Shown: positions 1 to 25,857 of the stretch, in pieces
Position numbering within the stretch: the first letter of the stretch is position 1
Layout of the letters: each line of letters opens with the position of its first letter
Source of the DNA: a virus
Lineage: Duplodnaviria > Heunggongvirae > Uroviricota > Caudoviricetes
DNA: 32,903 nt
Reading direction: 5' to 3' (one strand)
IMG/VR virus record: IMGVR_UViG_2778261576_000007
Translations under genes and position numbers: made by a program
The notes under the pieces: generated by a model
What the model was told of the DNA's origin: nothing
Seen by the model: only the letters and a program-made list of their open reading frames with translations
Databases searched by the model: none

Positions 1-1014
1 TTACTCTACTGTGGACACTGTGTGGACACTCTCGGCCTCAGTACCACCTCTTAGCGGATTAAGAGAAATGGCGTCCTGAAGGTACTCTGGCGCAAAATGA
101 GCGTAAACCATAGTTTGTTCAATCCGCGTGTGACCTAGTATCCGTTGTAGCGTGATAATACTTCCTCCATTAATCATGAAATGAGTGGCAAAGCTGTGCC
201 TTAGTGCATGTGTGGCTTGCCCCATTGGCAAATCCGGTTTTATTGCTTTCATTGTTCGTCTGAAGCGAGGGTAATCAGCATCAGGGAATAAAAAACCTCG
301 TTTGTTATCCGCGATCATTTTGGCAACAGCCTCTGAGATCGGGACGGTGCGTGGTTTGTTTGTTTTCGTTTTAACAAACGTGACGCGGTTATGGATGATA
401 TTTTCTGCTTTCAAACGAGCTGCTTCTCCCCAACGTGCTCCAGTACTCAGGCAAAGAATCGCAATCTTTTTATTGTCGCCGTCAAGAGCAGCAAGCAGTA
501 AGGCAATTTCTTCCTGCGTGAGATAGCCTGTGTCTGGTTTTTCCTCCTTAAGCCTTTTTGTCCCTCTGATAGGGTGCTCACCAAAGAATAACTCCGCTTC
601 AATCAGGGCTGTAAACATGCCGCTAATACATGTTAAATCACGATTGATACTCGAAGGTTTAATACCCTGACTTCTTCGGGTGGCGCAGTACTGGCTGATA
701 AGCGATTTCGTAATTTGAAATGCGCATGGGTCATTCGTTATTTTTGTGAAGATTTCAATTTTTCCAAGATTAGATTTCCCATGCTCTTCGTGTTTACCCT
801 TTAAATCCCACCAGATCTGTGTCAGCTCCGACAGACGTCGCTTGTCTGTTGGTTTTGATAGCCATTCTTTATTGTGGTGGTTGTACAACGTGTATTTCTC
901 GAAAGCGACAGCTTCGCTTTTCTTATCAAACTTCCTACGGATGCGTTTTCCATTACGTCCAGTAGGGCGGATGTCCACTTCATATCGACCATCATCGAGT
1001 TTTTTGATTGCCAT
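1..1014 (-). CDS. int: Tyrosine integrase (P2 Int-like, 337 aa)
   Basis: ORF 1..1014 on the minus strand. C-terminal catalytic region shows the tyrosine recombinase signature (ATHALRHSFATH ... LGHTRIEQTMVYAHF). Position at the prophage end next to repressor C; length matches recalled P2 Int. Confidence 0.92.
   Translation of the reverse strand: MAIKKLDDGRYEVDIRPTGRNGKRIRRKFDKKSEAVAFEKYTLYNHHNKEWLSKPTDKRRLSELTQIWWDLKGKHEEHGKSNLGKIEIFTKITNDPCAFQITKSLISQYCATRRSQGIKPSSINRDLTCISGMFTALIEAELFFGEHPIRGTKRLKEEKPDTGYLTQEEIALLLAALDGDNKKIAILCLSTGARWGEAARLKAENIIHNRVTFVKTKTNKPRTVPISEAVAKMIADNKRGFLFPDADYPRFRRTMKAIKPDLPMGQATHALRHSFATHFMINGGSIITLQRILGHTRIEQTMVYAHFAPEYLQDAISLNPLRGGTEAESVHTVSTVE
10..30. repeat. 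Tandem direct repeat TGTGGACACT x2 (period 11), putative Int arm-type binding sites (P' arm)
   Basis: TGTGGACACT occurs at 10-19 and again at 21-30 inside the 3' end of int. Related TGTGGnC repeats with the same 11-bp period occur next to the right att core (31312-31333). Confidence 0.5.
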
Positions 1015-1107
1015 CAGAAAACCCTCCGAGTGGTGTGTTTTTTGGCGACTACTAATCGCTTTTTTCGTGGTGGCTGAAATTTAGCCACCAATAGTAGGCA
1101 CTTGTGA

Positions 1108-1119
1108 TGAATATATTCA
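1108..1119. promoter_or_regulatory. Perfect 12-bp palindrome TGAATATATTCA between C and int
   Basis: The sequence reads identically on both strands. It lies in the 115-bp C-int intergenic region, just downstream of the C stop. Function unknown; a protein-binding site is possible. Confidence 0.3.
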
Positions 1120-1129
1120 CGATGAATTG

Positions 1130-1429
1130 TTAACCAGTCTTTTGACCGGAGTGGGGCGACGTTGTTTCGTTTTGCCCAAAGTGTGCGAGAGCGGGCGCAA
1201 TTTGCCCGGACTCAGGAGCGATCTGATTGGTCATGAACCATAAAGTGTATTTGGTGAATTGTGGGGTCTGCAGGATGTTCATCATGACATCTGTTGGAGG
1301 TGTTGAACGACCACTTTCATAGTAACTCAGCGTGCCATACGGAACCCCTGTTAAATCAGCAAGTTGTTGTCTGCTCAAATACTCTGATTTTCGCATTAAG
1401 ACTATCTTCTCGCTTATCGTGTTTGACAT
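1130..1429 (-). CDS. C: Immunity repressor C (99 aa, HTH)
   Basis: ATG at 1429 (minus strand). Helix-turn-helix segment LSRQQLADLTGVPYGTLSYYESG. Divergent from cox; the sequence matches my recollection of the P2 C repressor. Confidence 0.9.
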   Translation of the reverse strand: MSNTISEKIVLMRKSEYLSRQQLADLTGVPYGTLSYYESGRSTPPTDVMMNILQTPQFTKYTLWFMTNQIAPESGQIAPALAHFGQNETTSPHSGQKTG

Positions 1430-1543
1430 GGTGTTTAGATCTCAATAGTATTTAGTTTAGATGTAGATTGTTTAGTGCTTGGATGTGTGCACTAAAAGGC
1501 ATTATAAGGCATTAAACGCAATTCATGAGGGCTGGAGGACGAC
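1430..1543. promoter_or_regulatory. Immunity switch region (divergent Pc/Pe promoters with operator and Cox-box candidates)
   Basis: 114-bp AT-rich region between divergent C and cox. Contains direct repeats of TTTAGAT/GTTTAG (1434-1480) and AAGGCATTA x2 (about 1496-1516). P2 C and Cox are known to bind directly repeated sites here; exact operator assignment was not attempted. Confidence 0.6.
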
Positions 1544-1819
1544 ATGAGCAAGCAAGTAACACTCATGACTGATGCGATTCCTTATCAGGAGTTCGCAAAA
1601 CTAATAGGAAAATCGACAGGAGCGGTTCGTCGGATGATCGATAAAGGAAAGCTGCCTGTAATTGATATGACCGATCCACAATCAGCTTCAGGTCGTGCAG
1701 GTGAATATTGGGTATACCTTCCGGCATGGAATAACGGACTAAAACTGGCTTATGAAAGCCGCCCTAAAGAGATTCGTGACGGCTGGTTGATGTGGTTAGG
1801 TCTCGGTGAACCACGTTAA
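1544..1819 (+). CDS. cox: Cox excisionase / early repressor (91 aa)
   Basis: First gene of the rightward early operon, divergent from C; size and sequence consistent with P2 Cox. Confidence 0.88.
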   Translation: MSKQVTLMTDAIPYQEFAKLIGKSTGAVRRMIDKGKLPVIDMTDPQSASGRAGEYWVYLPAWNNGLKLAYESRPKEIRDGWLMWLGLGEPR

Positions 1820-1829
1820 GGAGAACCGT

Positions 1830-2000
1830 ATGAATGAACCTCGTTGTATTGCTCAGTTATTGCGTAACGAAAGCCCCAGGGCGATTGACTTCACCATCAC
1901 CCACGGTAAGGGGCGTAAGGGAATCATTATCCGCACCAAAAAACAGAGTCCGTTAAAAAAGGCTCTGACCTTTCTGAAAAGCCGGAGGGTATGGAAATGA
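1830..2000 (+). CDS. Small early-operon hypothetical protein (P2 orf78 position)
   Basis: The track ORF begins at a GTG at 1806. The ATG at 1830 is preceded by AAGGAG with 7-nt spacing, so it is the preferred start. The stop overlaps the B start. Confidence 0.55.
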   Translation: MNEPRCIAQLLRNESPRAIDFTITHGKGRKGIIIRTKKQSPLKKALTFLKSRRVWK

Positions 2001-2497
2001 CAGTGATGACGCTCAATCTCGTTGAAAAACAGCCAGCAGCTATGCGCCGGATAATTGGTAAGCATCTTGCCGTTCCTCGCTGGCAGGATACATGTGATTA
2101 TTATAATCAGATGATGGAGCGCGAACGGTTAACGGTTTGCTTCCATGCGCAGTTAAAACAGCGTCACGCAACGATGCGTTTTGAAGAAATGAACGACGTC
2201 GAACGTGAACGGCTGGTTTGTGCAATTGATGAATTGCGTGGGGCATTCTCAAAACGCCGTCAGGTTGGCGCAAGTGAGTATGCATATATTAGTTTTTTAA
2301 CAGTCAGTCAGCGTCGTACTTTATTTATGCATGCCGGATTGACTGAAAAAGAATTCAACCAGCCATACTGGCGAATTAATGAAGAATCATGTTACTGGCG
2401 TGATGCTTTATTCCGTGCATTACGTGAATTATTCAGCCTGTTTGAGTATGCACCGACAATTCTGACGTCGGTAAAACCAGAGCAATATCTGCATTAA
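1991..2497 (+). CDS. B: Replication protein B (lagging-strand synthesis / helicase-loader-like)
   Basis: Position after cox in the early operon and length about 166 aa. The start may instead be the ATG at 1997, which has better spacing from GGAGGG. Confidence 0.8.
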   Translation: MEMTVMTLNLVEKQPAAMRRIIGKHLAVPRWQDTCDYYNQMMERERLTVCFHAQLKQRHATMRFEEMNDVERERLVCAIDELRGAFSKRRQVGASEYAYISFLTVSQRRTLFMHAGLTEKEFNQPYWRINEESCYWRDALFRALRELFSLFEYAPTILTSVKPEQYLH

Positions 2498-2560
2498 ATA
2501 ATTAACCAGAGTTTTTAACGCACTTAATCGTGCGGGGCTTCTTTTTGCCTGGAGAAAGTC

Positions 2561-2785
2561 ATGCATACAGTTTCTGAAAACAAGTGCGGTAAATACGCAT
2601 TACTGCTGCAACAGGCCAGAGCCGAAGCACAGGCCGACGCAGCGACACGCTTTTCTTCTCATCTTGACGCCATGATTCGCCATATCACAAAGGCGGAGTT
2701 ATCCCGCGTGGAGATAGTCGAGCTGCTCAGTCAGGAGTCGGAAAAATTTCACAATATCGGATTGTCTCGCGGGGAGGTGCTTTGA
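2561..2785 (+). CDS. Early hypothetical protein (P2 orf80 position)
   Basis: ORF with RBS GGAGAAA; the stop overlaps the next start (ATGA). Confidence 0.7.
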
Positions 2786-3084
2786 TGTCCTGTTCTCATT
2801 CAGTTGTATTACTGAATAACGCCTTAAAAATCGCCGTTATGAAAAATGGCGATTTGTCTCTTATTCAACTTTGCCTTGATAAAGAAAAACGCGACATAAC
2901 TGAATCTGTTATCGCGATTTATCAGAATGAATTAAACCTCCTGTCTGATGTGGTCAATTTACTTGTTAAACGCGCTGTATTCCACAAGCAAATTTCCTCA
3001 GTGGATGAACTGACAAAATTAACGACAGAACTTGCCAGTTATTGCGCTGATGTATCCAGGCAACTTAACGATAAAAGGAGCTGA
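2785..3084 (+). CDS. Early hypothetical protein (P2 orf81 position)
   Basis: ATG at 2785 is preceded by GGGGAGGTG. The track ORF starts at an upstream in-frame TTG at 2782. Confidence 0.7.
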   Translation: MSCSHSVVLLNNALKIAVMKNGDLSLIQLCLDKEKRDITESVIAIYQNELNLLSDVVNLLVKRAVFHKQISSVDELTKLTTELASYCADVSRQLNDKRS

Positions 3085-3086
3085 TA

Positions 3087-3311
3087 ATGCCGGACAACGT
3101 AGATTTTATTCAGGAACAACAGGCTGAATTACTGGAGCGCCAGATTAACGCGGCAAGGGTAAAACATTGCGGTGCTTCTGCGCTGGTTTGCGAAGAGTGT
3201 GACGCGCCAATACCTGCAGCCCGTCGTGCGGCTTACCCGTCAGCCACGCGTTGTGTTTCCTGCCAGTCAGTCTTTGAAGCAAAAAACAAACATTACCGGA
3301 GAACGGCATGA
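3087..3311 (+). CDS. TraR/DksA-type C4 zinc-finger protein (P2 orf82 position)
   Basis: C-x2-C ... C-x2-C motif (CEECDAPIP ... RCVSCQ) in a 74-aa protein; RBS AAAAGGAG. Confidence 0.75.
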   Translation: MPDNVDFIQEQQAELLERQINAARVKHCGASALVCEECDAPIPAARRAAYPSATRCVSCQSVFEAKNKHYRRTA

Positions 3312-3583
3312 GTATTCGTATTGAAATTGGCGAACGTTATGTCGTTACCAGTGACAGCTTTCAGTTTATTCTCCACGAGAAAAAGAGAGCGGAAAGCGGT
3401 AAAAACGCCGGTCAGGAATGGCTGGCGGTGGTTGGTTATTACCCGAAATTAAGCCAGCTCGTTTCCGGCCTGATGCATCACGATATTCTGACCGGAAGCG
3501 CAAAGTCTTTTGCTGATTTAAACGCGCAGGTTGAGCAACTCAGCAGGCGTTGTTCAGAGGCTTTTGGCTCATATGGCCGTTAA
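3308..3583 (+). CDS. Early hypothetical protein (P2 orf83 position)
   Basis: ORF translationally coupled to its neighbours (ATGA overlap at 3308-3311). Confidence 0.7.
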   Translation: MSIRIEIGERYVVTSDSFQFILHEKKRAESGKNAGQEWLAVVGYYPKLSQLVSGLMHHDILTGSAKSFADLNAQVEQLSRRCSEAFGSYGR

Positions 3584-5852
3584 AGCCTCCGGGCGTTTTG
3601 TCCCTCCGTCAGCATTTGCTGCAGGCACCGGTAAGGCGTTTACCGGTGCTTATGCATGGAACGCGCCACGCGAGGCCGTCGGGCGCGAAAGACTCCTTAC
3701 ACGTGACGAGATGCGTCAGGTGCAAGGTGTTTTATCCACGATTAACCGCCTGCCTTACTTTTTGCGCTCGCTGTTTACTTCACGCTATGACTACATCCGG
3801 CACAATAAAAGCCCGGTGCACGGGTTTTATTTCCTCACATCCACTTTTCAGCGTCGTTTATGGCCGCGCATTGAGCGTGTGAATCAGCGCCATGAAATGA
3901 ACACCGACGCGTCGTTACTGTTTCTGGCAGAGCGTGACCACTATGCGCGCCTGCCGGGAATGAATGACAAGGAGCTGAAAAAGTTTGCCGCCCGTATCTC
4001 ATCGCAGCTTTTCATGATGTATGAGGAACTCTGCGATGCCTGGGTGGATGCGCATGGCGAAAAAGAATCGCTGTTTACGGATGAGGCGCAGGCGCATCTG
4101 TATGGTCATGTTGCTGGCGCTGCACGTGCTTTCAATATTTCCCCTCTCTACTGGAAAAAATACCGTAAAGGACAGATGACCACGAGGCAGGCATATTCTG
4201 CCATTGCCCGTCTGTTTAACGATGAGTGGTGGACTCATCAGCTTAAAGGCCAGCGTATGCGCTGGCATGAGGCGTTACTGATTGCTGTCGGGGAGGTCAA
4301 TAAAGACCGTTCTCCTTATGCCAGTAAACATGCCATTCGGGATGTGCGTGCACGCCGCCAGGCAAATCTGGAATTTCTTAAATCGTGTGACCTTGAAAAC
4401 AGGGAAACCGGCGAGCGCATCGACCTTATCAGTAAGGTGATGGGCAGTATTTCTAATCCTGAAATTCGCCGGATGGAGCTGATGAACACCATTGCCGGTA
4501 TTGAGCGTTACGCCGCTGCAGAGGGTGATGTGGGGATGTTTATCACGCTGACCGCGCCGTCAAAGTATCACCCGACACGTCAGGTCGGAAAAGGCGAAAG
4601 TAAAACCGTCCAGCTTAATCACGGCTGGAATGATGAGGCATTTAATCCAAAGGATGCGCAGCGTTATCTCTGCCGTATCTGGAGCCTGATGCGCACGGCA
4701 TTCAAGGATAATGATTTACAGGTCTACGGTTTGCGAGTCGTCGAGCCACACCACGACGGAACGCCGCACTGGCATATGATGCTTTTTTGTAATCCACGCC
4801 AGCGTAACCAGATTATCGAAATCATGCGTCGCTATGCGCTCAAAGAGGATGGCGACGAAAGAGGAGCCGCGCGAAACCGTTTTCAGGCAAAACATCTTAA
4901 CCAGGGCGGTGCTGCGGGGTATATCGCGAAATACATCTCAAAAAACATCGACGGCTATGCACTGGATGGGCAGCTCGATAACGATACCGGCAGACCGCTG
5001 AAAGATACTGCTGCGGCTGTTACCGCATGGGCGTCAACGTGGCGCATTCCGCAATTTAAAACGGTTGGACTGCCGACAATGGGGGCTTATCGTGAACTAC
5101 GCAAATTGCCTCGCGGCGTCAGTATTGCTGATGAGTTTGACGAACGCGTCGAGGCTGCTCGCGCTGCCGCAGACAGTGGTGATTTTGCGTTGTATATCAG
5201 CGCGCAGGGTGGGGCAAATGTCCCGCGCGATTGTCAGACTGTCAGGGTTGCCCGTAGCCCGTCGGATGACGTTAACGAGTACGAGGAAGAAGTCGAGAGA
5301 GTGGTCGGCATTTACGCGCCGCATCTCGGCGCGCGTCATATTCATATCACCAGAACGACGGACTGGCGCATTGTGCCGAAAGTTCCGGTCGTTGAGCCTT
5401 TGACTTTAAAAAGCGGCATCGCCGCGCCTCGGAGTCCTGTCAATAACTGTGGAAAGCTCACCGGTGGTGATACTTCGTTACCGGCTCCCACACCTTCTGA
5501 GCACGCCGCAGCAGTGCTAAATCTGGTTGATGACGGTGTTATCGAATGGAATGACCCGGGGGTCGTGAGGGCGCTCAGGGGTGCATTAAAACACGGTCGG
5601 AGAACGCCAAGTCGTCAGCAAAGAAACGGAAGCCCGTTAAAACCACATGAAATTGCACCATCGGCCAGACTGACCCGGTCTGAACGATTGCAAATCACCC
5701 GTATCCGTGTTGACCTTGCTCAAAACGGTATCAGGCCGCAGCGATGGGAGCTTGAGGCGTTAGTACGCGGTGCGATCGTCAATTACAATGAAAAGCAATT
5801 TTCATATCCTAGTGTAGATGAGTGGAGTGGGTTTTCTGGTTATTCAGAGTAA
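3573..5852 (+). CDS. A: Replication initiator A, HUH rolling-circle endonuclease
   Basis: HUH motif (PHWHMMLF) and tandem-tyrosine motif (AGYIAKYISKN) are visible. The preferred start is the ATG at 3573 (MAVKASGRF...), giving 759 aa; the track ORF starts further upstream at 3531 and overlaps orf83. Confidence 0.92.
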   Translation: MAVKASGRFVPPSAFAAGTGKAFTGAYAWNAPREAVGRERLLTRDEMRQVQGVLSTINRLPYFLRSLFTSRYDYIRHNKSPVHGFYFLTSTFQRRLWPRIERVNQRHEMNTDASLLFLAERDHYARLPGMNDKELKKFAARISSQLFMMYEELCDAWVDAHGEKESLFTDEAQAHLYGHVAGAARAFNISPLYWKKYRKGQMTTRQAYSAIARLFNDEWWTHQLKGQRMRWHEALLIAVGEVNKDRSPYASKHAIRDVRARRQANLEFLKSCDLENRETGERIDLISKVMGSISNPEIRRMELMNTIAGIERYAAAEGDVGMFITLTAPSKYHPTRQVGKGESKTVQLNHGWNDEAFNPKDAQRYLCRIWSLMRTAFKDNDLQVYGLRVVEPHHDGTPHWHMMLFCNPRQRNQIIEIMRRYALKEDGDERGAARNRFQAKHLNQGGAAGYIAKYISKNIDGYALDGQLDNDTGRPLKDTAAAVTAWASTWRIPQFKTVGLPTMGAYRELRKLPRGVSIADEFDERVEAARAAADSGDFALYISAQGGANVPRDCQTVRVARSPSDDVNEYEEEVERVVGIYAPHLGARHIHITRTTDWRIVPKVPVVEPLTLKSGIAAPRSPVNNCGKLTGGDTSLPAPTPSEHAAAVLNLVDDGVIEWNDPGVVRALRGALKHGRRTPSRQQRNGSPLKPHEIAPSARLTRSERLQITRIRVDLAQNGIRPQRWELEALVRGAIVNYNEKQFSYPSVDEWSGFSGYSE

Positions 5853-6092: not shown

Positions 6093-8576
6093 TTAACGAG
6101 GGTTTCGCGTATAGGTTTCAACTATGTCTGATGCACGTAATTTACATGTGATCAATTGTTCTCTTATAAATATCTCATCGTGTCGTTTATCACTTGTACA
6201 AATGGCCGTGATAAAACTGAGGATAGATGCTTTAAAACGTTCAAGATCATTTATGGTCATTATTCGAGACCCTTCGTTTAGTGTTGCGGCATATTCAGGC
6301 ATGTTAGAGTGATGTATCATTATAGGTGTGGCGGTAGCAGTTTGATCATACATGTTTCTGAACCATGCACCCGACCCATTTAACTGATTGCAGTCATGCT
6401 TACTTATTCTTTCTGCGGTTGCTCCATTTTTGCATTCAATTACTAGATAATTGTTTTCTCCCATTGCCCATAAATTGTCAGGTCCTTTACCTGTATCATT
6501 TTCTGGCCGTTGGCTACGAAAACCGATCAAATATGCAACTTTTTCGATAGCATCTTCGAAGGGATTCGATGTGCCCTCGGAGAAAATAAGGTTTTCTATT
6601 ATTGAATTAGTATGCACAACGACTTGATTCGCCGATTCAAAATTACTTCTGAGATAGGAGCTACATTCCCTGGCCTGTTCAAGTGCCGCACCATTAAGTC
6701 TATTATATGTTACGCCGATTAGTGGTTTTAATACCCGATAGTTATCGTTTGATGCAGACTGAAGCAATATCTGAGCTTCAGATTTGTCATATAAGTTTAC
6801 ATATTCCGCAGCATGTTCTTTTAGATAACCCTTATAAACTTTGTCAGCTGTACTACTATCATTTTTTAGAGTTAAAGCGGCTTGTTGAAACATATTTCGT
6901 GATGCGAAGTCATATGCCAATCTTTTGTTTATAGTATGCTGGTCAATCTGCTTATTTTCCAATGTTAAGCCAGTCAATATACCTTTGCTTTTTGAGACCC
7001 AGTCAGAATTGCGTAACAGACAATAATCAAGAGCACCTTTGATTGAATCAATAGTTGTATCCGGCAGTATCGATACCAATTGCTGTGAAAGTTGAATTTG
7101 TGCTTTCGTTGCTGGAGAAAACCTTTCTAAGGAGGAGCCAAGGAAAACAGCGCCATTTAATGCTTTGCCAAGTAAGATCACTCCGCAGAAGTCGTCGCTT
7201 GATCTCACTCCTCGCCCCATTCCTTGTTCAATTTTCTGGATAATTTCATCTTTGGTTTTTTCGCTTCCAAGCAATAAGCTTTGTGAGACTTTATCTATTA
7301 GTCTACGAACGTCAGGAAGTCCATCTATTACTAATAGACGACATGCGGTATTTGGTAAATCAATACCATCATATCTATTAACTAGGACTACTAAGCCAAC
7401 ATGTTGTGTCCTTAATTCTTGTACACCTTGATAAATTGTATTTTTATCTAATATTCTGTCTGCAACATCTTGCCAAAATCTAGTTCTGTAATCGGATGGT
7501 ACAATTACAACAACATTATGTTTGGAGGATATCTCCTTGCACATAGCTTTGATATCTACATCAGAAAGACTAGGGTTTATAACCTGAGGCATTAGTATCA
7601 TTCTATCACCAATATCACCAATTGTTTTTGGTGTTATCGGATTAGAGAGTGATTCATCCGTTATTCCGAAGTGGCTCGCTAGAATGGATTCATCGACAAG
7701 AGTAGCTGTCATGAATATTTTTCTTCTTGCGTTTGATAGGCTTGGGATCATTTGGATTGGTATGCAATGAGGTGATATCTCTATTTTGGAAGCACTTACA
7801 ACGCATTTCGATAATATTAGATTGTCTTTTATTAATGGCCATTTGAAACTCAAGTCATCATGGTCTTTATTTTCTAACAAGATTGTCATTATATCATTTA
7901 TGCTTTCTTGCCATTTCCAAAATGGAACTCTCACATAAGCATTTCTATCGCCGGATTTTATCTCTAGTGTTTTTGCACCAGCTTGTGTCATTAGTGAATT
8001 TTCAAAAATTCTGAATAATTTATCATAGGCAGGGTTATTTTTTTGAATGCTAATGGAGAATTGTTCTTCAATTGAAGAAAGGCAAGCGTGAGCATCGTCA
8101 ATTATTATAGAACCTATTGGTATTTTTTGTCCATCATCTCCAACGCCAAATGCAGAACGTCCATTAACCACTTTGAATATATTTGTAACTAAAATTTCTT
8201 TACCTGCAATAAATTTGGGGGACCTCTCATCTTGAGTTACAGGTATACCAAGTTGATTAGCCTCCAAAACCACTTGCTCAACTAGATAGTTGTCAGGAAC
8301 AACATATACAGCGGGACCTTCTCCTTCATTTATACAGCTTTTAAGAATGATTAACCCAACTGAAGTTTTACCGCTTCCGGTATTCATTTTTATTACATTG
8401 GTTGGGCTTCTCCTTGCTTCATACCATTTTTCCCAGACCTCTGATTGCACATCTCGAGGGTATTGAAATTTGGTGTCTTTGCTCGGTAGAGCTGTAAATA
8501 TATCTCGTGGTGGAATCGCTGTGTCGCTATTTACACTGGGCGAAAGCTTGGTTAAATCAAGGAAAAAACCAGACAT
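6093..8576 (-). CDS. Cargo protein: SF2 helicase fused to a C-terminal PD-(D/E)xK-like nuclease (827 aa); candidate anti-phage defence protein
   Basis: Helicase motifs: I NTGSGKTS, II IIIDDAHA, III FMTATL, VI QGMGRGVR. Near the C-terminus, GPDNLW followed 12 residues later by LVIECK fits a PD-(D/E)xK nuclease. About 38% GC in a sampled segment against about 50-55% in the backbone. Occupies the old/tin position between A and cos. RBS AAGAGGA precedes the ATG at 8576. Confidence 0.6.
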   Translation of the reverse strand: MSGFFLDLTKLSPSVNSDTAIPPRDIFTALPSKDTKFQYPRDVQSEVWEKWYEARRSPTNVIKMNTGSGKTSVGLIILKSCINEGEGPAVYVVPDNYLVEQVVLEANQLGIPVTQDERSPKFIAGKEILVTNIFKVVNGRSAFGVGDDGQKIPIGSIIIDDAHACLSSIEEQFSISIQKNNPAYDKLFRIFENSLMTQAGAKTLEIKSGDRNAYVRVPFWKWQESINDIMTILLENKDHDDLSFKWPLIKDNLILSKCVVSASKIEISPHCIPIQMIPSLSNARRKIFMTATLVDESILASHFGITDESLSNPITPKTIGDIGDRMILMPQVINPSLSDVDIKAMCKEISSKHNVVVIVPSDYRTRFWQDVADRILDKNTIYQGVQELRTQHVGLVVLVNRYDGIDLPNTACRLLVIDGLPDVRRLIDKVSQSLLLGSEKTKDEIIQKIEQGMGRGVRSSDDFCGVILLGKALNGAVFLGSSLERFSPATKAQIQLSQQLVSILPDTTIDSIKGALDYCLLRNSDWVSKSKGILTGLTLENKQIDQHTINKRLAYDFASRNMFQQAALTLKNDSSTADKVYKGYLKEHAAEYVNLYDKSEAQILLQSASNDNYRVLKPLIGVTYNRLNGAALEQARECSSYLRSNFESANQVVVHTNSIIENLIFSEGTSNPFEDAIEKVAYLIGFRSQRPENDTGKGPDNLWAMGENNYLVIECKNGATAERISKHDCNQLNGSGAWFRNMYDQTATATPIMIHHSNMPEYAATLNEGSRIMTINDLERFKASILSFITAICTSDKRHDEIFIREQLITCKLRASDIVETYTRNPR

Positions 8577-20620: not shown

Positions 20621-22939
20621 ATGAGCACAAAATTCAGAACCGTTATCACCACTGCCGGTGCAGCAAAGCTGGCAGCGGCAACCGCGCCGGGAGGGCGGAA
20701 GGTCAACATTACCACGATGGCCGTCGGGGATGGCGGTGGTAAATTGCCTGTCCCGGATGCCGGACAGACCGGGCTTATCCATGAAGTCTGGCGACATGCG
20801 CTGAACAAAATCAGCCAGGACAAACGAAACAGTAATTATATTATCGCAGAGCTGGTTATTCCGCCGGAGGTGGGCGGTTTCTGGATGCGTGAGCTTGGCC
20901 TGTACGATGATGCGGGAACATTAATTGCCGTGGCGAACATGGCCGAAAGTTATAAGCCAGCTCTTGCCGAAGGCTCAGGGCGTTCGCAGACCTGTCGCAT
21001 GGTCATCATCGTCAGCAGTGTGGCCTCAGTGGCGCTGACCATTGACACCACAACGGTGATGGCGACGCAGGATTACGTTGATGACAAAATTGCAGAGCAT
21101 GAACAGTCACGACGTCACCCGGACGCCTCGCTGACCGCAAAAGGTTTTACTCAGTTAAGCAGTGCGATCAACAGCACGTCTGAAACACTGGCCGCAACGC
21201 CGAAAGCGGTAAAGGCCGCGTATGATCTTGCTAACGGGAAATACACTGCGCAGGATGCCACCACAGCGCGAAAAGGCCTTGTCCAGCTCAGTAGCGCCAC
21301 CAACAGCACGTCTGAAACGCTCGCCGCAACACCAAAAGCGGTAAAGGCAGCATATGACCTTGCTAACGGGAAATACACTGCACAGGACGCCACCACAGCG
21401 CGAAAAGGTCTTGTCCAGCTCAGTAGCGCCACCAACAGCGATTCTGAAACGCTTGCAGCAACGCCAAAGGCGGTTAAGACAGCGTATGACCTTGCTAACG
21501 GGAAATACACTGCGCAGGATGCCACCACGGCGCGAAAAGGTCTTGTCCAGCTAAGTAGCGCCACCAACAGTGATTCTGAAACCCTCGCGGCAACGCCAAA
21601 AGCAGTGAAGTCTGCCTATGACAATGCTGAAAAACGTCTTCAGAAAGATCAGAACGGTGCGGATATTCCGGGAAAGGATACCTTCACGAAAAATATCGGA
21701 GCCTGTCGTGCTTATAGCGGCGCTTTGAGCACTGAAGCCGGAAACTGGACAACCGCTCAGTTTATTGAATGGCTGGATTCCCGTGGTGCATTTAATCATC
21801 CGTACTGGATGTGCAAAGGCTCCTGGTCATATGCAAATAACAAAATCATTACGGATACCGGATGTGGTGATATCCACCTGGCTGGTTGTGTCGTCGAGGT
21901 CATGGGAACTAAATCTGCAATCACTATCCGAGTGACCACGCCGACAACATCAAGCGGTGGCGGTACAACCAGCGCGCAATTCACTTACATTAATCATGGG
22001 GACGGCTACTCCCCCGGCTGGCGTCGTGACTGGAATCGTCAGGGCGACGCAATGACCGGAACGATTAATCAGGATGGCGGAAGCCAGAATGCCTATATGT
22101 CTACGGCCTTATGTTCAGGCACCAGAGGCGGCAAAAAATATCTCAGAAAGTTTCGTGGTGGAGAAGGAGACACTATCTGGCATGAAACAGTACAGGGCGG
22201 GGTAGTTCGCTGGGCGACTGGTAATACTGATGCTCAGGAAGAATTATCACTCAGCTCCGCTTATGGTCTCCGTTCAAGAGGTGAGATTACATCAAGCAGT
22301 GCTAATGGTCTGCGCATTGCTTATGGCAATTATGGATTCTTTATCAGGAATGATGGCAGCAGCACTTATTTTATGTTGACTAAATCAGGTGACAGATTAG
22401 GCACTTATAATAATTTAAGACCACTGATTATAAATGATGCCACGGGTGCTGTATCAATGGGGCATGGCCTGAGTGTTACTGGTGATATTGCCTCAAGTAC
22501 CAAAGTACGTGCCGGTAGCGGGAAAAAATTCACGGTCAGCAGCAGTAATACATCCACGAAGGAAGCCGCATTCAATTTGTGGGGAAACTCAAGTCGTCCG
22601 GTGGTGGCTGAATTAGGTGATGATGCAGGCTGGCATTTTTACAGTCAGAGAAATACAGATAACAGCATCACTTTTGCTGTTAACGGGCAGGTATCACCAT
22701 CTAACTATAGTAATTTTGATTCACGCTATGTCCGGGATATCCGGCTTGGTGGTGCTGCCACATACAAACCTGCGAACAATGGCATGACATGGACACATCA
22801 GGCACCGTCCGGGTGTGTATATTCCGGCATTATTGTTCAGGATACCGGCTCAAACTCTGCCGATAACATTGGTGGCGTATATTACAGACCGGTGCAGAAA
22901 TACATTAACGGGACATGGTATAACGTGGCACAGGTATAA
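20621..22939 (+). CDS. H: Tail fibre protein H (772 aa) with internal tandem repeats and an AT-rich distal domain
   Basis: Conserved N-terminal part, four 44-aa repeats, and a distal part that is visibly more AT-rich. It is longer than the 669 aa I recall for P2 H. Confidence 0.88.
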   Translation: MSTKFRTVITTAGAAKLAAATAPGGRKVNITTMAVGDGGGKLPVPDAGQTGLIHEVWRHALNKISQDKRNSNYIIAELVIPPEVGGFWMRELGLYDDAGTLIAVANMAESYKPALAEGSGRSQTCRMVIIVSSVASVALTIDTTTVMATQDYVDDKIAEHEQSRRHPDASLTAKGFTQLSSAINSTSETLAATPKAVKAAYDLANGKYTAQDATTARKGLVQLSSATNSTSETLAATPKAVKAAYDLANGKYTAQDATTARKGLVQLSSATNSDSETLAATPKAVKTAYDLANGKYTAQDATTARKGLVQLSSATNSDSETLAATPKAVKSAYDNAEKRLQKDQNGADIPGKDTFTKNIGACRAYSGALSTEAGNWTTAQFIEWLDSRGAFNHPYWMCKGSWSYANNKIITDTGCGDIHLAGCVVEVMGTKSAITIRVTTPTTSSGGGTTSAQFTYINHGDGYSPGWRRDWNRQGDAMTGTINQDGGSQNAYMSTALCSGTRGGKKYLRKFRGGEGDTIWHETVQGGVVRWATGNTDAQEELSLSSAYGLRSRGEITSSSANGLRIAYGNYGFFIRNDGSSTYFMLTKSGDRLGTYNNLRPLIINDATGAVSMGHGLSVTGDIASSTKVRAGSGKKFTVSSSNTSTKEAAFNLWGNSSRPVVAELGDDAGWHFYSQRNTDNSITFAVNGQVSPSNYSNFDSRYVRDIRLGGAATYKPANNGMTWTHQAPSGCVYSGIIVQDTGSNSADNIGGVYYRPVQKYINGTWYNVAQV
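21139..21625 (+). repeat. About 132-bp (44-aa) tandem repeats inside H, roughly 3.7 copies
   Basis: The repeated unit (K/R)G(F/L)(T/V)QLSSA(I/T)NS(T/D)SETLAATPKAVKxAYDLANGKYTAQDATTAR is visible in both DNA and protein. Boundaries are approximate. Confidence 0.8.
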
Positions 22940-22942
22940 TTT

Positions 22943-23470
22943 ATGCAGCATTTGATAAATATAACCGCGGGTAATCCAAAAACGGTTGAACAATATCAAT
23001 TGACAAAGGGCTTTGATGTTGTCTGGTTTTTTACAGAAGATGGTAAGAACTGGTACGAAGAACAAAAGTATTTTGCTGATGACACGATAAAAATAGCGTA
23101 CGACAAGGATAATATTATCCGCTATGTGGAAAAAGATGTGACAGCTATCAGACCAGATGGATTAAGTGTGGTTGAAGTGGCGGATATTACTGCTAACCGA
23201 CGGGCGGACATTTCAGGGAACTGGATGTTTAAGGACGGCAAAGTGATTAAACGCATTTATACGGCAGAGGAATTGCAGCAGCAGGCAGAAAACCGGAAAG
23301 CCAGACTTCTTGCAGATGCTGAATCCGTGATTTTGCCACTGGAGCGCGCGGTCAGACTGAACATGGCAACAGATGAGGAGCGTAGCCGACTGGAAGCATG
23401 GGAGCGTTACAGCGTTCTGGTCAGTCGTGTGGATCCTGCAAATCCTGAATGGCCGGAAATGCCGCAATAA
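22943..23470 (+). CDS. G: Tail fibre assembly chaperone G (175 aa)
   Basis: Immediately downstream of H; AT-rich like the distal part of H. Confidence 0.82.
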
Positions 23471-23519
23471 GTTGTATGAGCTTACATATCTATTGCATAG
23501 AGTAAAGCCTAATCTGACA

Positions 23520-23543
23520 GTCCGCTCTGTGCCAAGAGCGGAC
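23520..23543. terminator. Inverted repeat between convergent G and cargo gene (possible bidirectional terminator without a U-tract)
   Basis: GTCCGCTC (23520-23527), 8-nt loop, GAGCGGAC (23536-23543). Neither strand has a clear T-run after it. Confidence 0.3.
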
Positions 23544-23597
23544 ATTATAGATGGTATATGTAGAAAGTGAACTTGCGTCGATTTTATGATCTAGCAG

Positions 23598-24407
23598 TCA
23601 CTTAATTATTGGATAACTCACACATGTATGGCCGTTGCTTATAGCATACATTTGGTTTCCCTTAAGATTTACAAATGGAAATGTCGTATACTCATAATTT
23701 ACAGATGTCATGTTAAATGTAAGGAATTTATCTTTAAGTTCTAATTTTGTTGAGTGTGCAGGGTATATTCCTTCATTTTTAATTGTGATAATAAAACCGA
23801 TAGGAAAAAAATGTAAAGCACAAATAAATGCTACATGTCCTTCGTTCATAAATGCTACACTTTGAGCTGATATGTGCATTCTGTGTGGGTAAAACCAGTA
23901 GTAAATATCATGAGTCTCCTCAAAACTTGGATTCTTACCCAAAACATAATCTTTTAAAGGTGTATAGAAGGGGCTATCTACGGGTTCTTTTTTACAATCT
24001 TCAACTGAAGTTGCCGATAGCACGTGTCCAATCATAGCCTTAGTGAAAGATATGCTATCAAAAGGTATTCTAATGAATGGATATACATTCATACCATTCA
24101 TATATTGACTCAACTGTTCTTTAAAGGACTTTGCTACATTTTCAATTGCAACGTCGAGTCCACCTAACACCTTATTGTTACAGTGGCTGCAAATGGTTTT
24201 GAAATAAGAGCCGTTTTTAGCATTTAATGGTTTAACTGGTTCCTGAACACCAAAAAATTCGCTAACTGTTTTCTGAAGAACAGGACCTAAGGTTATGGCA
24301 CACTTTGGAGGAACATGATCTTTTGTGAGGAAGTCATATTTTCCACAAATATTGCAATAACCTTTAGTAATGCCGTTGTGCTTCCATCGTTCACTAATTT
24401 GCGTCAT
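23598..24407 (-). CDS. Cargo protein with N-terminal HNH (His-Me finger) nuclease motif and an uncharacterised C-terminal domain (269 aa)
   Basis: CNICG ... DHVPPK ... N ... CSHCNNK fits the HNH pattern. About 27% GC in a sampled segment. The preferred start is the ATG at 24407 with GAGGGA 7 nt upstream; the track ORF begins at a TTG at 24422. Occupies the Z/fun position between G and FI. Confidence 0.55.
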   Translation of the reverse strand: MTQISERWKHNGITKGYCNICGKYDFLTKDHVPPKCAITLGPVLQKTVSEFFGVQEPVKPLNAKNGSYFKTICSHCNNKVLGGLDVAIENVAKSFKEQLSQYMNGMNVYPFIRIPFDSISFTKAMIGHVLSATSVEDCKKEPVDSPFYTPLKDYVLGKNPSFEETHDIYYWFYPHRMHISAQSVAFMNEGHVAFICALHFFPIGFIITIKNEGIYPAHSTKLELKDKFLTFNMTSVNYEYTTFPFVNLKGNQMYAISNGHTCVSYPIIK

Positions 24408-24542
24408 TTTTTGTTCCCTCAATAGTATAAGCTATCTATACATTTTTTAATCCTATCAAAGATACAACTTAACGTCAGGGAAATGATAGTGTTTTGGCTA
24501 TGTAAATTGTCAGTCGGAAAATGAGTGAGTACAAATCAGGAC

Positions 24543-24570
24543 AGGCGGGCAGATTGCCCGCCTTTTCTTT
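24543..24570 (+). terminator. Rho-independent terminator (plus strand) upstream of the FI promoter region
   Basis: Stem GGCGGGCA (24544-24551), short loop, stem GCCCGCC, then TTTTCTTT (24563-24570). Confidence 0.6.
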
Positions 24571-24666
24571 ATCTGTTGTTTCATCCACTGACCAGCCAGG
24601 TCAAATAGCGTCTCATGCTCTGCCCAACAGAAAATAGTTGCACCCATTAACCACGGAGTTAAACGG
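24571..24666 (+). promoter_or_regulatory. Putative late promoter region for the FI-FII-E-T-U-D operon
   Basis: Intergenic region between the terminator and FI. In P2 this operon is driven by an Ogr-dependent late promoter. No specific motif was assigned. Confidence 0.4.
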
Positions 24667-25857
24667 ATGAGTGACTATCATCACGGCGTGCAGGTGCTGG
24701 AGATTAACGACGGCACCCGCGTCATTTCCACCGTATCCACGGCCATTGTCGGCATGGTCTGCACGGCCAGCGATGCGGATGCGGAAACCTTCCCCCTCAA
24801 TAAACCGGTGCTGATTACCAATGTGCAGAGCGCAATTGCAAAGGCCGGTAAAAAAGGCACGCTGGCGGCATCGTTGCAGGCCATCGCCGACCAGTCAAAA
24901 CCGGTCACCGTTGTCGTGCGTGTGGAAGACGGCACCGGCGACGACGAGGAAACGAAACTCGCGCAGACCGTTTCCAATATCATCGGCACCACCGACGAAA
25001 ACGGTCAGTACACCGGACTGAAAGCCCTGCTGGCGGCGGAGTCGGTAACCGGTGTAAAACCGCGTATTCTCGGCGTGCCGGGACTGGATACCAAAGAGGT
25101 GGCTGTTGCACTGGCATCAGTCTGTCAGAAGCTGCGCGCTTTCGGATATATCAGCGCATGGGGCTGTAAGACCATTTCCGAGGTGAAAGCCTACCGCCAG
25201 AATTTCAGCCAGCGTGAGCTGATGGTCATCTGGCCGGATTTCCTCGCATGGGATACGGTCACCAGTACCACCGCCACCGCGTATGCCACCGCCCGTGCGC
25301 TGGGTCTGCGCGCTAAAATCGACCAGGAGCAGGGCTGGCATAAAACGCTGTCCAATGTCGGGGTGAACGGTGTTACCGGCATCAGCGCATCCGTCTTCTG
25401 GGATTTGCAGGAGTCCGGCACCGATGCTGACCTGCTTAACGAGTCAGGCGTCACTACGCTGATTCGCCGCGACGGTTTCCGCTTCTGGGGTAACCGTACC
25501 TGCTCCGATGACCCGCTGTTCCTCTTTGAAAACTACACCCGTACCGCGCAGGTGCTGGCCGACACGATGGCTGAGGCGCACATGTGGGCGGTGGACAAGC
25601 CCATCACCGCAACGCTGATTCGCGACATCGTTGACGGCATCAATGCCAAATTCCGTGAGCTGAAAACAAACGGCTATATCGTGGATGCGACCTGCTGGTT
25701 CAGCGAAGAATCCAACGATGCGGAAACCCTCAAGGCCGGAAAACTGTATATCGACTACGACTATACCCCGGTGCCTCCTCTTGAAAACCTGACCCTGCGC
25801 CAGCGTATTACCGATAAATACCTGGCAAATCTGGTCACCTCGGTTAACAGCAATTAA
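24667..25857 (+). CDS. FI: Tail sheath protein FI (396 aa)
   Basis: Synteny and size. Confidence 0.92.
   Translation: MSDYHHGVQVLEINDGTRVISTVSTAIVGMVCTASDADAETFPLNKPVLITNVQSAIAKAGKKGTLAASLQAIADQSKPVTVVVRVEDGTGDDEETKLAQTVSNIIGTTDENGQYTGLKALLAAESVTGVKPRILGVPGLDTKEVAVALASVCQKLRAFGYISAWGCKTISEVKAYRQNFSQRELMVIWPDFLAWDTVTSTTATAYATARALGLRAKIDQEQGWHKTLSNVGVNGVTGISASVFWDLQESGTDADLLNESGVTTLIRRDGFRFWGNRTCSDDPLFLFENYTRTAQVLADTMAEAHMWAVDKPITATLIRDIVDGINAKFRELKTNGYIVDATCWFSEESNDAETLKAGKLYIDYDYTPVPPLENLTLRQRITDKYLANLVTSVNSN

What the first reader, a model, noticed from the sequence alone, without database searches (positions are those of the whole stretch)
23471..24666. Second cargo island in the G-FI (Z/fun) hotspot: very AT-rich 269-aa protein with an N-terminal HNH motif and unknown C-terminal domain
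Between the tail-fibre chaperone G and sheath gene FI, where P2 carries Z/fun, sits a single minus-strand gene (23598-24407) with markedly lower GC than its neighbours. Its N-terminus contains CNICG ... DHVPPK ... N ... CSHCNNK, the spacing expected of an HNH nuclease. The remaining 180 or so residues are aromatic-rich and I could not place them. The gene has a good RBS (GAGGGA) and is flanked by an inverted repeat (23520-23543) and a plus-strand terminator (24543-24570). I cannot exclude that it is the P2 Z/fun protein itself, whose sequence I do not recall.
Basis: partly seen in the sequence, partly recalled or inferred. Interest (0 to 1): 0.78.

Follow-up and report, generated by a model that had tools for sequence, protein, structure and literature searches.

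The report
Orphan HNH nuclease in P2 hotspot
A P2-like prophage carries, in a spot where such phages keep anti-virus genes, a single AT-rich gene for an uncharacterised nuclease that also travels on lambda-like prophages and conjugative plasmids. It is most likely a one-gene defence against other phages, but nobody has tested it.

Summary
A 269-aa minus-strand gene (23598-24407, GC 0.35 against 0.52 for the window) lies between tail-fibre chaperone G and sheath gene FI. It is not P2 Z/Fun. It belongs to a large family of ~270-aa proteins (1725 clusters at 50% identity) with no Pfam, NCBIfam or PADLOC model; PHROG 21495 is listed as 'unknown function'.

The N-terminus is a genuine His-Me (HNH) finger. 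C18/C21/C73/C76, D30-H31, N77 and D85 are invariant or nearly so in 140 diverse homologues. The motif is split by a ~35-residue omega-loop, which hides it from Pfam in this copy. The C-terminal ~165 residues model with very high confidence but match no solved fold.

The gene is always solitary and is under purifying selection (dN/dS ~0.13-0.17). It sits on a ~970-bp cassette bounded by a 24-nt hairpin. The same cassette occurs in lambdoid prophages and IncF plasmids. Distant homologues occupy the P2 old/tin hotspot and an inovirus prophage, or lie next to CBASS-like, Septu-like and Mrr-type genes.

Best reading (about 0.55): a single-gene anti-phage or anti-mobile-element nuclease whose new C-terminal domain sets specificity or activation. 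It is a new variant of a known kind and is worth a plaque assay.

The parts
23511..23543 (.). Left junction element. AATCTGACA is followed by the 24-nt hairpin GTCCGCTCT-GTGCCA-AGAGCGGAC (23520-23543). Sequence shared with other cargo and other hosts begins or ends exactly here.
   Evidence: The same hairpin type flanks unrelated cargo in L-413C, P2, E. coli S10, a lambdoid prophage and many IMG/VR contigs.
23598..24407 (-). Cargo gene for a 269-aa solitary HNH-family protein (WP_000192157-type; PHROG 21495). The stop codon is 23598-23600.
24123..24368 (-). Residues ~14-95: His-Me (HNH) finger with a CCCC zinc knuckle (C18, C21, C73, C76). D30-H31 lie at the end of beta1 and N77 in the first turn of the helix, with D85 eight residues further on. 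A ~35-residue omega-loop (res 32-67) lies between beta1 and beta2.
23601..24095 (-). Residues ~105-269: alpha/beta C-terminal domain, aromatic-rich. Conserved residues are G127-H128, W171, Y173, P174, F200, P202 and P244. It has no family or fold match.
24415..24420 (-). Shine-Dalgarno GAGGGA, 7 nt upstream of the ATG.
24408..24490 (-). 5' leader and presumed promoter region of the cassette. It is truncated here: other copies continue ~65 bp further to the right-hand hairpin. The scan found no convincing sigma-70 promoter.
24485..24494 (.). Deletion junction (GATAGTGTTT). The 78 bp that carry the right-hand hairpin GTCTGCTTT-TCGCTC-AAAGCAGAC in S10, L-413C and P2 are missing in this window and in phage pro147.
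24543..24573 (+). Intrinsic terminator-like hairpin plus T-run. It is part of the conserved P2 backbone upstream of FI, not part of the island.

Best explanation
The island is a ~970-bp, hairpin-bounded, single-gene cassette lodged in the P2 Z/fun hotspot. I infer that its product is an active one-metal His-Me (HNH) DNA nuclease, stabilised by a CCCC zinc knuckle and fused into one compact globule with a previously undescribed C-terminal domain. It most likely works as a stand-alone anti-phage or anti-mobile-element effector made by the lysogen. The C-terminal domain would supply target discrimination or activation. That could mean recognising a feature of foreign DNA, as Type IV modification-dependent enzymes such as McrA do. 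Or it could mean holding the nuclease off until an infection cue arrives. The HNH site would then cut the invader's DNA, or in an abortive variant the cell's own. Shown by computation: an intact gene under purifying selection; a conserved catalytic tetrad; a confident two-domain model; no partner gene; promiscuous carriage by prophages and plasmids in hotspots that are experimentally known to hold defence genes. Inferred: nuclease activity, the substrate, the role of the C-terminal domain, expression in the lysogen, and the defence phenotype itself.
For: Nuclease. D30, H31, N77 and D85 (N77+8) and the four Cys are invariant or at least 90% conserved in 140 homologues. They occupy the positions that define the His-Me active site in PMC5714182. 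HNH_5 is hit by 45/140 members, with P0165 at 27.9 and P0196 at 27.6 bits against a cut-off of 27.5, and Endonuclease_7 by 3. With the omega-loop removed, the window protein hits HNH_5 (E = 4e-4) and PF01844 (E = 2e-3) across the whole motif. The AF2 model has pLDDT 95.9 and pTM 0.93 with beta1 24-31, beta2 68-73 and a helix from 74. Function under selection. dN/dS is 0.13-0.17, and the family has 1725 clusters at 50% identity, nearly all ~270 aa. Solitary. No neighbour family occurs in more than 14 of 78 loci, and that one is a serine recombinase; no DNA methyltransferase is among the 25 families most often matched by immediate neighbours. Location. Vassallo et al. found three validated systems plus fun in the Z/fun locus (PMC9519451). 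A 36%-identical homologue sits between portal and gpA (the old/tin hotspot) of a Tatumella P2/186-like prophage. Other homologues are inovirus cargo next to DUF2726, lie in a Plesiomonas array with AbiU2, Shedu and PLD genes, or lie beside SMODS+SLATT, PtuA, Mrr_cat, nSTAND3 and AbiTii genes. The same 95%-identical allele is in lambdoid prophages and in 52 plasmids, 44 of them conjugative. The other hotspot of this prophage carries PADLOC candidate PDC-S28.
Confidence: 0.55

Rival explanations
1. It is a free-standing HNH homing endonuclease: a selfish gene that cuts phage genomes lacking it at the G-FI junction and is copied in during repair.
For: HNH nucleases are the commonest free-standing homing endonucleases of phages (group 1 of PMC5714182). 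The gene is an AT-rich intergenic insertion between conserved late genes.
Against: Near-identical copies sit at unrelated sites: the P2 G-FI gap, the replication-nin region of lambdoid prophages, and IncF plasmids beside IS26 and BetT. Homologues sit in the P2 old/tin hotspot, an inovirus, beside a lambda-like terminase, and in chromosomal islands. The same hairpin junctions flank unrelated cargo, so insertion does not depend on this nuclease. There is no NUMOD, IENR or HTH DNA-binding module. The gene is transcribed against the late operon.
Confidence: 0.07
2. It is a housekeeping or recombination nuclease that serves the mobile element itself. Examples would be a structure-specific resolvase like T4 endonuclease VII, RusA or NinG/Rap, or an HNH helper of terminase.
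For: Three family members hit Pfam Endonuclease_7. In the lambdoid prophage the gene lies in the nin-type region near RusA. In Enterobacter it abuts a lambda-like terminase.
Against: The gene is present in only a minority of each element type and is variable cargo. It has the opposite orientation to, and a different composition from, the operons it sits in. It is also found on plasmids, in inoviruses and in non-phage islands. P2 and lambda complete their cycles without it.
Confidence: 0.1
3. It is a toxin or addiction module, or an inter-bacterial weapon: a nuclease whose loss or delivery kills cells and so stabilises the carrier element, with an antidote that has not been recognised (a small RNA, the hairpin, or a host factor).
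For: The gene is carried by conjugative plasmids next to RelB and PemIK loci. Orphan nucleases are common toxin domains (PMC5714182).
Against: There is no conserved adjacent ORF in 78 loci and no Rfam RNA in the island. I saw no secretion or delivery domains or fusions; the longer family members have no added Pfam domain. The protein is a fixed ~270-aa globule.
Confidence: 0.1
4. It is a catalytically silent zinc-ribbon protein, a regulator or DNA binder, in which the HNH-like motif is only structural.
For: The window protein itself scores only 12.3 bits on HNH_5. Databases call it 'metal-binding protein' or 'chaperonin'.
Against: It is not only the cysteines that are conserved. The catalytic His31, the metal ligands N77, D30 and D85 are also invariant or nearly so across 140 sequences of 20-45% identity. 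A purely structural zinc ribbon would not require that.
Confidence: 0.05

Closest known systems
McrA of E. coli prophage e14 and other Type IV (modification-dependent) HNH restriction enzymes
   Same: A prophage-borne, solitary protein of ~270-280 aa with no methyltransferase partner. It has an HNH finger with a CxxC...CxxC zinc site plus a second domain that would set specificity. The McrA properties are from my own knowledge and from group 1 of PMC5714182.
   Different: The domain order is reversed: HNH is N-terminal here and C-terminal in McrA. There is no sequence or fold match to any solved structure, McrA-type readers included. Modification dependence is untested.
[quoted passage not shown]
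   Same: Zinc knuckle, D-H at the end of beta1, Asn in the first turn of the helix, and an acidic residue at +8. Family members reach the HNH_5 gathering score.
   Different: A ~35-residue structured omega-loop splits the motif, so most members, this one included, fall below the threshold. The domain is always fused to the same unknown ~165-aa C-terminal domain.
P2 Z/Fun and the other cargo of the P2 G-FI hotspot (three PD systems of Vassallo et al. 2022; the ECOR P2 'Z-region' ORFs of Nilsson et al. 2004)
   Same: Same insertion point, same flanking inverted-repeat or hairpin elements, and the same single-gene AT-rich moron style.
   Different: There is no sequence similarity to Fun or to the L-413C ORF, and no PADLOC model hits. 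Fun lies on the other strand in P2.
Single-protein nuclease defences with swappable sensor domains (Shedu, END nucleases, PvuRts1I-type enzymes)
   Same: The architecture is a nuclease plus a specificity domain in one solitary polypeptide, carried in defence islands or on mobile elements (PMC12191111; the Shedu abstract).
   Different: The nuclease fold differs: His-Me here, PD-(D/E)XK or Type IIS-like there. The C-terminal domain has no detectable relation to iEndoIII or other solved reader or sensor domains.

Membership tests
His-Me finger (HNH) nuclease superfamily | Catalytic His at the C-terminal end of the first beta-strand, usually preceded by D/E/H | tested here: met
   H31 is invariant and D30 at least 90% conserved in 140 sequences. 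The model strand is 24-31. The definition is from PMC5714182.
His-Me finger (HNH) nuclease superfamily | [quoted passage not shown] | tested here: met
   N77 is invariant; D85 (+8) is at least 90% conserved; the helix starts at residue 74.
His-Me finger (HNH) nuclease superfamily | Beta-beta-alpha core, optionally with a zinc knuckle (treble clef) | tested here: met
   The order of secondary structure is knuckle C18/C21, beta1, omega-loop, beta2 68-73, C73/C76, helix. No 3-D superposition was possible.
His-Me finger (HNH) nuclease superfamily | Structural match to a solved HNH domain | tested here: inconclusive
Pfam HNH_5 (PF14279) | Score at or above the gathering threshold of 27.5 bits | tested here: not met
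   The window protein scores 12.3 bits, or 20.7 bits after removal of the omega-loop. Homologues P0165 (27.9) and P0196 (27.6) pass, and 45/140 have E <= 0.01. The link to the family is therefore transitive rather than direct.
His-Me finger (HNH) nuclease superfamily | Metal-dependent nuclease activity | not testable with these tools
   Needs purified protein.
P2 Z/Fun | Sequence similarity to the P2 ORF between G and FI | tested here: not met
   BLASTP best E = 0.46 over 10 residues.
Known or candidate defence systems in PADLOC-DB 2.0 | HMM hit to any of the 5027 models | tested here: not met
   0 families at E <= 10 and again at E <= 0.01. Newer DefenseFinder models could not be run.
Type IV modification-dependent restriction enzyme (McrA-like) | Solitary nuclease without a cognate methyltransferase | tested here: met
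   No conserved partner in 78 loci; no MTase among the 25 Pfam families most often matched by the 147 immediate neighbours.
Type IV modification-dependent restriction enzyme (McrA-like) | Recognisable modified-base reader domain (SRA, EVE/YTH/PUA, McrA N-domain and the like) | tested here: not met
   The C-terminal 162 aa have no Pfam hit and no PDB fold neighbour.
Type IV modification-dependent restriction enzyme (McrA-like) | Cleavage dependent on DNA modification | not testable with these tools
   Needs plaque assays with modified and unmodified T-even phages, or in-vitro digests.
Free-standing HNH homing endonuclease | One cognate insertion or target site shared by the copies | tested here: not met
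   Alleles at least 95% identical occur in at least three unrelated contexts, and homologues in at least five more.
Phage moron / hotspot cassette | Independent unit with deviant composition, variable presence and its own signals | tested here: met
   GC 0.35 against 0.52. The unit is present in a minority of P2-like genomes. It has the opposite strand, an RBS and hairpin junctions. The promoter was not identified.

The most novel reading that the evidence does not exclude
Two linked readings are not excluded. First, the C-terminal ~165 residues may be a new fold that acts as the sensor of a new single-gene immune nuclease family, spread from Enterobacteria to Cyanobacteria, Nitrospirae and candidate-phylum (CPR) bacteria. 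Second, the 24-nt hairpins that bound this and other cargo may be the substrates of a dedicated hairpin- or ssDNA-based cassette-exchange mechanism. Such a mechanism would resemble attC or IS200/IS605 ends in spirit, and would shuttle defence cargo between P2-like phages, lambdoid phages and F-type plasmids.
Probability: 0.15. Interest if true: 0.8.

Novelty: new variant of a known kind. Interest (0 to 1): 0.55.

Why it matters
If the defence reading is right, a family of at least 1700 sequence clusters that annotation currently labels 'chaperonin', 'metal-binding protein' or 'hypothetical' becomes a compact (0.8 kb), partner-free immune nuclease. It is carried by about 2.6% of complete E. coli genomes, including ETEC prophages and IncF resistance-type plasmids. 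That carriage would affect phage-therapy host range and plasmid or phage traffic. A confidently modelled domain with no solved relative, fused to a minimal HNH, is also an attractive target for structure determination and for learning a new way of telling self from non-self DNA. The hairpin-bounded cassette architecture offers a concrete handle on how phage hotspots swap cargo so fast.

Tried and rejected
1. Identity with P2 Z/Fun or the L-413C hotspot ORF: rejected by BLASTP.
2. Direct family assignment with Pfam, NCBIfam and PADLOC: nothing above threshold. PHROG 21495 gives only 'unknown function'.
3. PDB by sequence profile, with 24- and 140-sequence alignments: no hit better than E = 1.4.
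5. A conserved partner, immunity or methylase gene: none in 78 loci.
6. Informative domain fusions in the longer family members: none.
7. An RNA element in the island: none in Rfam.
8. A sigma-70 promoter for the gene: the scan found none upstream and my manual reading was ambiguous.
9. Literature: no paper holds the protein accessions, the PHROG id or the DHVPPK motif. The supplements of Rousset 2022 and Vassallo 2022 do not list it. Nilsson et al. 2004 could not be read.
10. The small 'site-specific integrase' next to the plasmid copies as a cassette recombinase: it is unrelated to the serine recombinases seen near distant homologues, so I found no consistent recombinase.
11. attC-like or terminator readings of the hairpin: I saw no R'/R'' core sites and no T-run by eye, and I ran no formal test.

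Full report
THE OBSERVATION

The window is a complete P2-like prophage; its closest relatives are E. coli PEC1012 (99.7%) and phage pro147 (99.2%). Between the tail-fibre assembly gene G (22943-23470) and the sheath gene FI (24667-25857) lies one minus-strand ORF, 23598-24407, of 269 aa.

- Its GC is 0.346 and its third-position GC 0.285, against 0.518 for the window and 0.572 for FI.
- The Shine-Dalgarno GAGGGA is at 24415-24420.
- The hairpin at 23520-23543 is a perfect 9-bp stem with a 6-nt loop.
- The plus-strand terminator at 24543-24563 is real.

The terminator, however, lies in the 24491-24666 stretch that every P2-like phage shares, so it is backbone and not cargo.

NOT Z/FUN, AND NOT ANY NAMED FAMILY

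BLASTP against the 299-aa ORF that P2 carries at this position finds nothing. The same is true for the L-413C hotspot ORF. Pfam, NCBIfam and PADLOC give no hit above threshold. PHROG 21495 matches full length but is listed as 'unknown function'. Source databases call the protein 'chaperonin', 'metal-binding protein' or 'hypothetical'. I found no paper that mentions its accessions, the PHROG id or its DHVPPK motif. It is absent from the held supplements of the two main P2-hotspot studies.

THE FAMILY

A word-indexed search gave 86 relatives across Gammaproteobacteria. An exhaustive profile search gave 1725 clusters at 50% identity with E <= 1e-3, and 321 at E <= 1e-30. Nearly all are 260-290 aa and match end to end, so the architecture is fixed.

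Genome loci come from Gamma- and Betaproteobacteria, Cyanobacteria, Nitrospirae, Planctomycetota, Bacillota and a CPR bacterium. Longer members carry no added Pfam domain. Between this gene and its 95% allele, and the Kluyvera and Erwinia orthologues, dN/dS is 0.13-0.17. The protein is therefore under purifying selection.

THE N-TERMINAL DOMAIN IS A HIS-ME (HNH) FINGER

In 140 homologues that are 20-45% identical to the query, C21, H31, C73, C76 and N77 are invariant. C18, D30, P33, P34, G66, L81, G82 and D85 are at least 90% conserved.

The His-Me classification paper defines the site as follows (PMC5714182):
- a catalytic His at the end of beta1, often preceded by D/E/H;
- an Asn or His in the first turn of the helix that binds the metal;
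- a further polar residue at +4 or +8.

Here these are D30-H31, N77 and D85 (+8). The AlphaFold models place them as expected: beta1 at 24-31, beta2 at 68-73, and the helix from residue 74.

The motif is interrupted by a structured omega-loop of about 35 residues, which is why this copy scores only 12.3 bits on HNH_5. The link is nevertheless solid:
- 45 of 140 members hit HNH_5 at E <= 0.01, and 3 hit Endonuclease_7.
- Two members pass the gathering score (27.9 and 27.6 bits against 27.5). Their N-terminal half aligns to profile positions 1-27 and their C-terminal half to positions 22-53.
- With the loop cut out, the window protein matches HNH_5 (E = 4e-4) and PF01844 (E = 2e-3) over the whole motif. 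This is an engineered sequence and counts as supporting evidence only.

I could not show a 3-D superposition on a solved HNH.

THE C-TERMINAL DOMAIN IS UNPLACED

Residues ~105-269 form an alpha/beta domain with conserved G127-H128, W171, Y173, P174, F200, P202 and P244. The domain models at pLDDT above 90.

A SOLITARY, PROMISCUOUS CASSETTE

I called ORFs in 78 genome loci and clustered the neighbours. No family accompanies the gene in more than 14 loci, and that family is a small serine recombinase. Next come LysR (9 loci), an SMODS+SLATT_4 pair (5), large serine recombinases (5) and tyrosine integrases (5 and 5). The 147 immediate neighbours include Resolvase 4, SMODS 3, integrase 3, Mrr_cat 3, Septu-type PtuA 2, nSTAND3 1 and AbiTii 1. 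No methyltransferase is among the 25 families they most often match.

In E. coli the gene occurs in 141 of 5426 complete genomes, with 29 copies on plasmids. PLSDB has it on 52 plasmids, 44 of them conjugative, from Escherichia, Klebsiella, Shigella, Enterobacter and Kosakonia.

The 95% allele occurs in three contexts:
- in lambdoid prophages of ETEC strains, between the replication genes and hokD/nin, again on the opposite strand;
- in the P2 hotspot of E. coli S10, behind BetT and DUF2254;
- on IncF plasmids beside the same two genes and IS26.

More distant homologues occur in six further contexts:
- between portal and gpA, the classical old/tin defence hotspot, of a Tatumella P2/186-like prophage;
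- at the end of a Vibrio inovirus prophage next to DUF2726;
- in a Plesiomonas gene array with AbiU2-, Shedu- and PLD-type genes;
- beside a lambda-like terminase;
- in an island that splits a his operon;
- in a Pseudomonas island with serine recombinases.

CASSETTE BOUNDARIES

Alignments of the junctions show that homology between contexts starts exactly at the hairpin GTCCGCTCT-GTGCCA-AGAGCGGAC (window 23520-23543). In other copies it ends at a sister hairpin, GTCTGCTTT-TCGCTC-AAAGCAGAC. The outer arms AATCTGACAG and CTGTCAGATT are inverted repeats. They correspond to the 'left/right inverted repeat' annotated in the ECOR P2 Z-region entries of Nilsson et al..

In this window and in pro147 the right hairpin is missing, through a 78-bp deletion between GATAGTGTTT and GATAGCGTTT. 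This also shortens the region upstream of the gene.

The hairpin type is not P2-specific. Of the 80 loci I could read, 55 have neither G nor FI nearby. Of 83 hairpins, 76 are intergenic. They mark GC discontinuities more than random positions do: median |dGC| is 0.073 against 0.033, Mann-Whitney p = 3e-11. The loci are not independent, so that p-value is inflated. How the cassettes move is unresolved.

INTERPRETATION

The Z/fun locus is an experimentally supported defence-enriched locus: Vassallo et al. found three validated systems there plus fun. The old/tin locus is the main P2 defence hotspot (Rousset et al.). Most untested cargo from the analogous P4 hotspots proved protective, 6 of 8 loci.

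The gene has these properties:
- a conserved nuclease active site;
- no partner gene;
- purifying selection;
- carriage by several kinds of mobile element;
- repeated placement in defence hotspots and beside defence genes.

It is therefore most economically read as a single-gene anti-phage or anti-mobile-element nuclease. An orphan nuclease must spare its host. I therefore infer that the C-terminal domain either restricts cutting to a foreign feature (Type IV-like, as in McrA) or gates the enzyme until infection. This is inference, and I put it at about 0.55.

The rivals are weaker:
- A homing endonuclease (about 0.07) is contradicted by the many unrelated insertion contexts and by the shared hairpin junctions around unrelated cargo.
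- An element-serving recombination or packaging nuclease is about 0.10.
- A toxin or addiction role is about 0.10.
- A non-catalytic zinc protein is about 0.05.

The remaining probability is for something I have not thought of. The hotspot is known to be mixed-purpose.

VERDICT

The thing is a new variant of a known kind: an HNH nuclease effector joined to an unplaced domain, riding a hotspot cassette. No one has characterised it as far as I could find. It is cheap to test. Interest is moderate, 0.55.

Noticed in passing
window 6093-8576 (-): The other (old/tin) hotspot of this prophage, between gpA and the portal gene, carries an AT-rich (GC 0.37) 827-aa gene. It matches PADLOC candidate system PDC-S28 full length (E = 0, 1056 bits). 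It is also related to PDB 10uj_A, 'Helicase ATP-binding domain-containing protein' (E = 5e-121).
   Followed up: partly
window 23520-23543; L011 7009; L012 328 and 5009; L097 2250; L099-L178: A 24-nt hairpin, GTCYGCTYT-N6-ARAGCRGAC, marks cargo boundaries in P2-like prophages, lambdoid prophages and IncF plasmids. It occurs in more than 120 IMG/VR contigs, most of them not P2-like. It is mostly intergenic and sits at GC discontinuities. Its role (recombination site, or something else) is unknown.
   Followed up: partly
window 24485-24494: This prophage and phage pro147 share a 78-bp deletion between 10-bp direct repeats. The deletion removed the right-hand hairpin and part of the region upstream of the HNH gene, so this copy may be immobile and differently expressed.
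   Followed up: partly
L012 (E. coli S10) 328-5032; L097 and L098 (IncF plasmids): A 4.7-kb block, BetT (BCCT transporter) - DUF2254 - HNH gene, is shared between a P2 Z-hotspot and conjugative IncF plasmids. That is a direct plasmid-phage cargo exchange. In two plasmids the HNH cassette sits on opposite sides of a small integrase-plus-hypothetical pair, which points to local rearrangement.
   Followed up: partly
L014 / L062 (Tatumella saanichensis) 7001-7831: A 36%-identical homologue occupies the other P2 hotspot (portal-gpA) of a P2/186-like prophage. The family therefore uses both P2 hotspots.
   Followed up: no
window 21150-21570 (within tail-fibre gene H, 20621-22939): Gene H contains three to four tandem copies of a ~45-residue unit (…ATTARKGLVQLSSATNS-SETLAATPKAVK-AYDLANGKYTAQD…), visible in the translation.
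   Followed up: no
window 24510-24647 (-): A 45-aa ORF lies wholly in the conserved backbone between the island and FI and overlaps the terminator. The pro147 record annotates a shorter version of it as ORF8, 'hypothetical protein'. It is probably not a gene.
   Followed up: no
L151 2765-4038: Another P2-like contig has, between the same two hairpins, a different minus-strand cargo gene of 346 aa with no obvious similarity to the HNH protein. This illustrates cassette replacement at the site.
   Followed up: no
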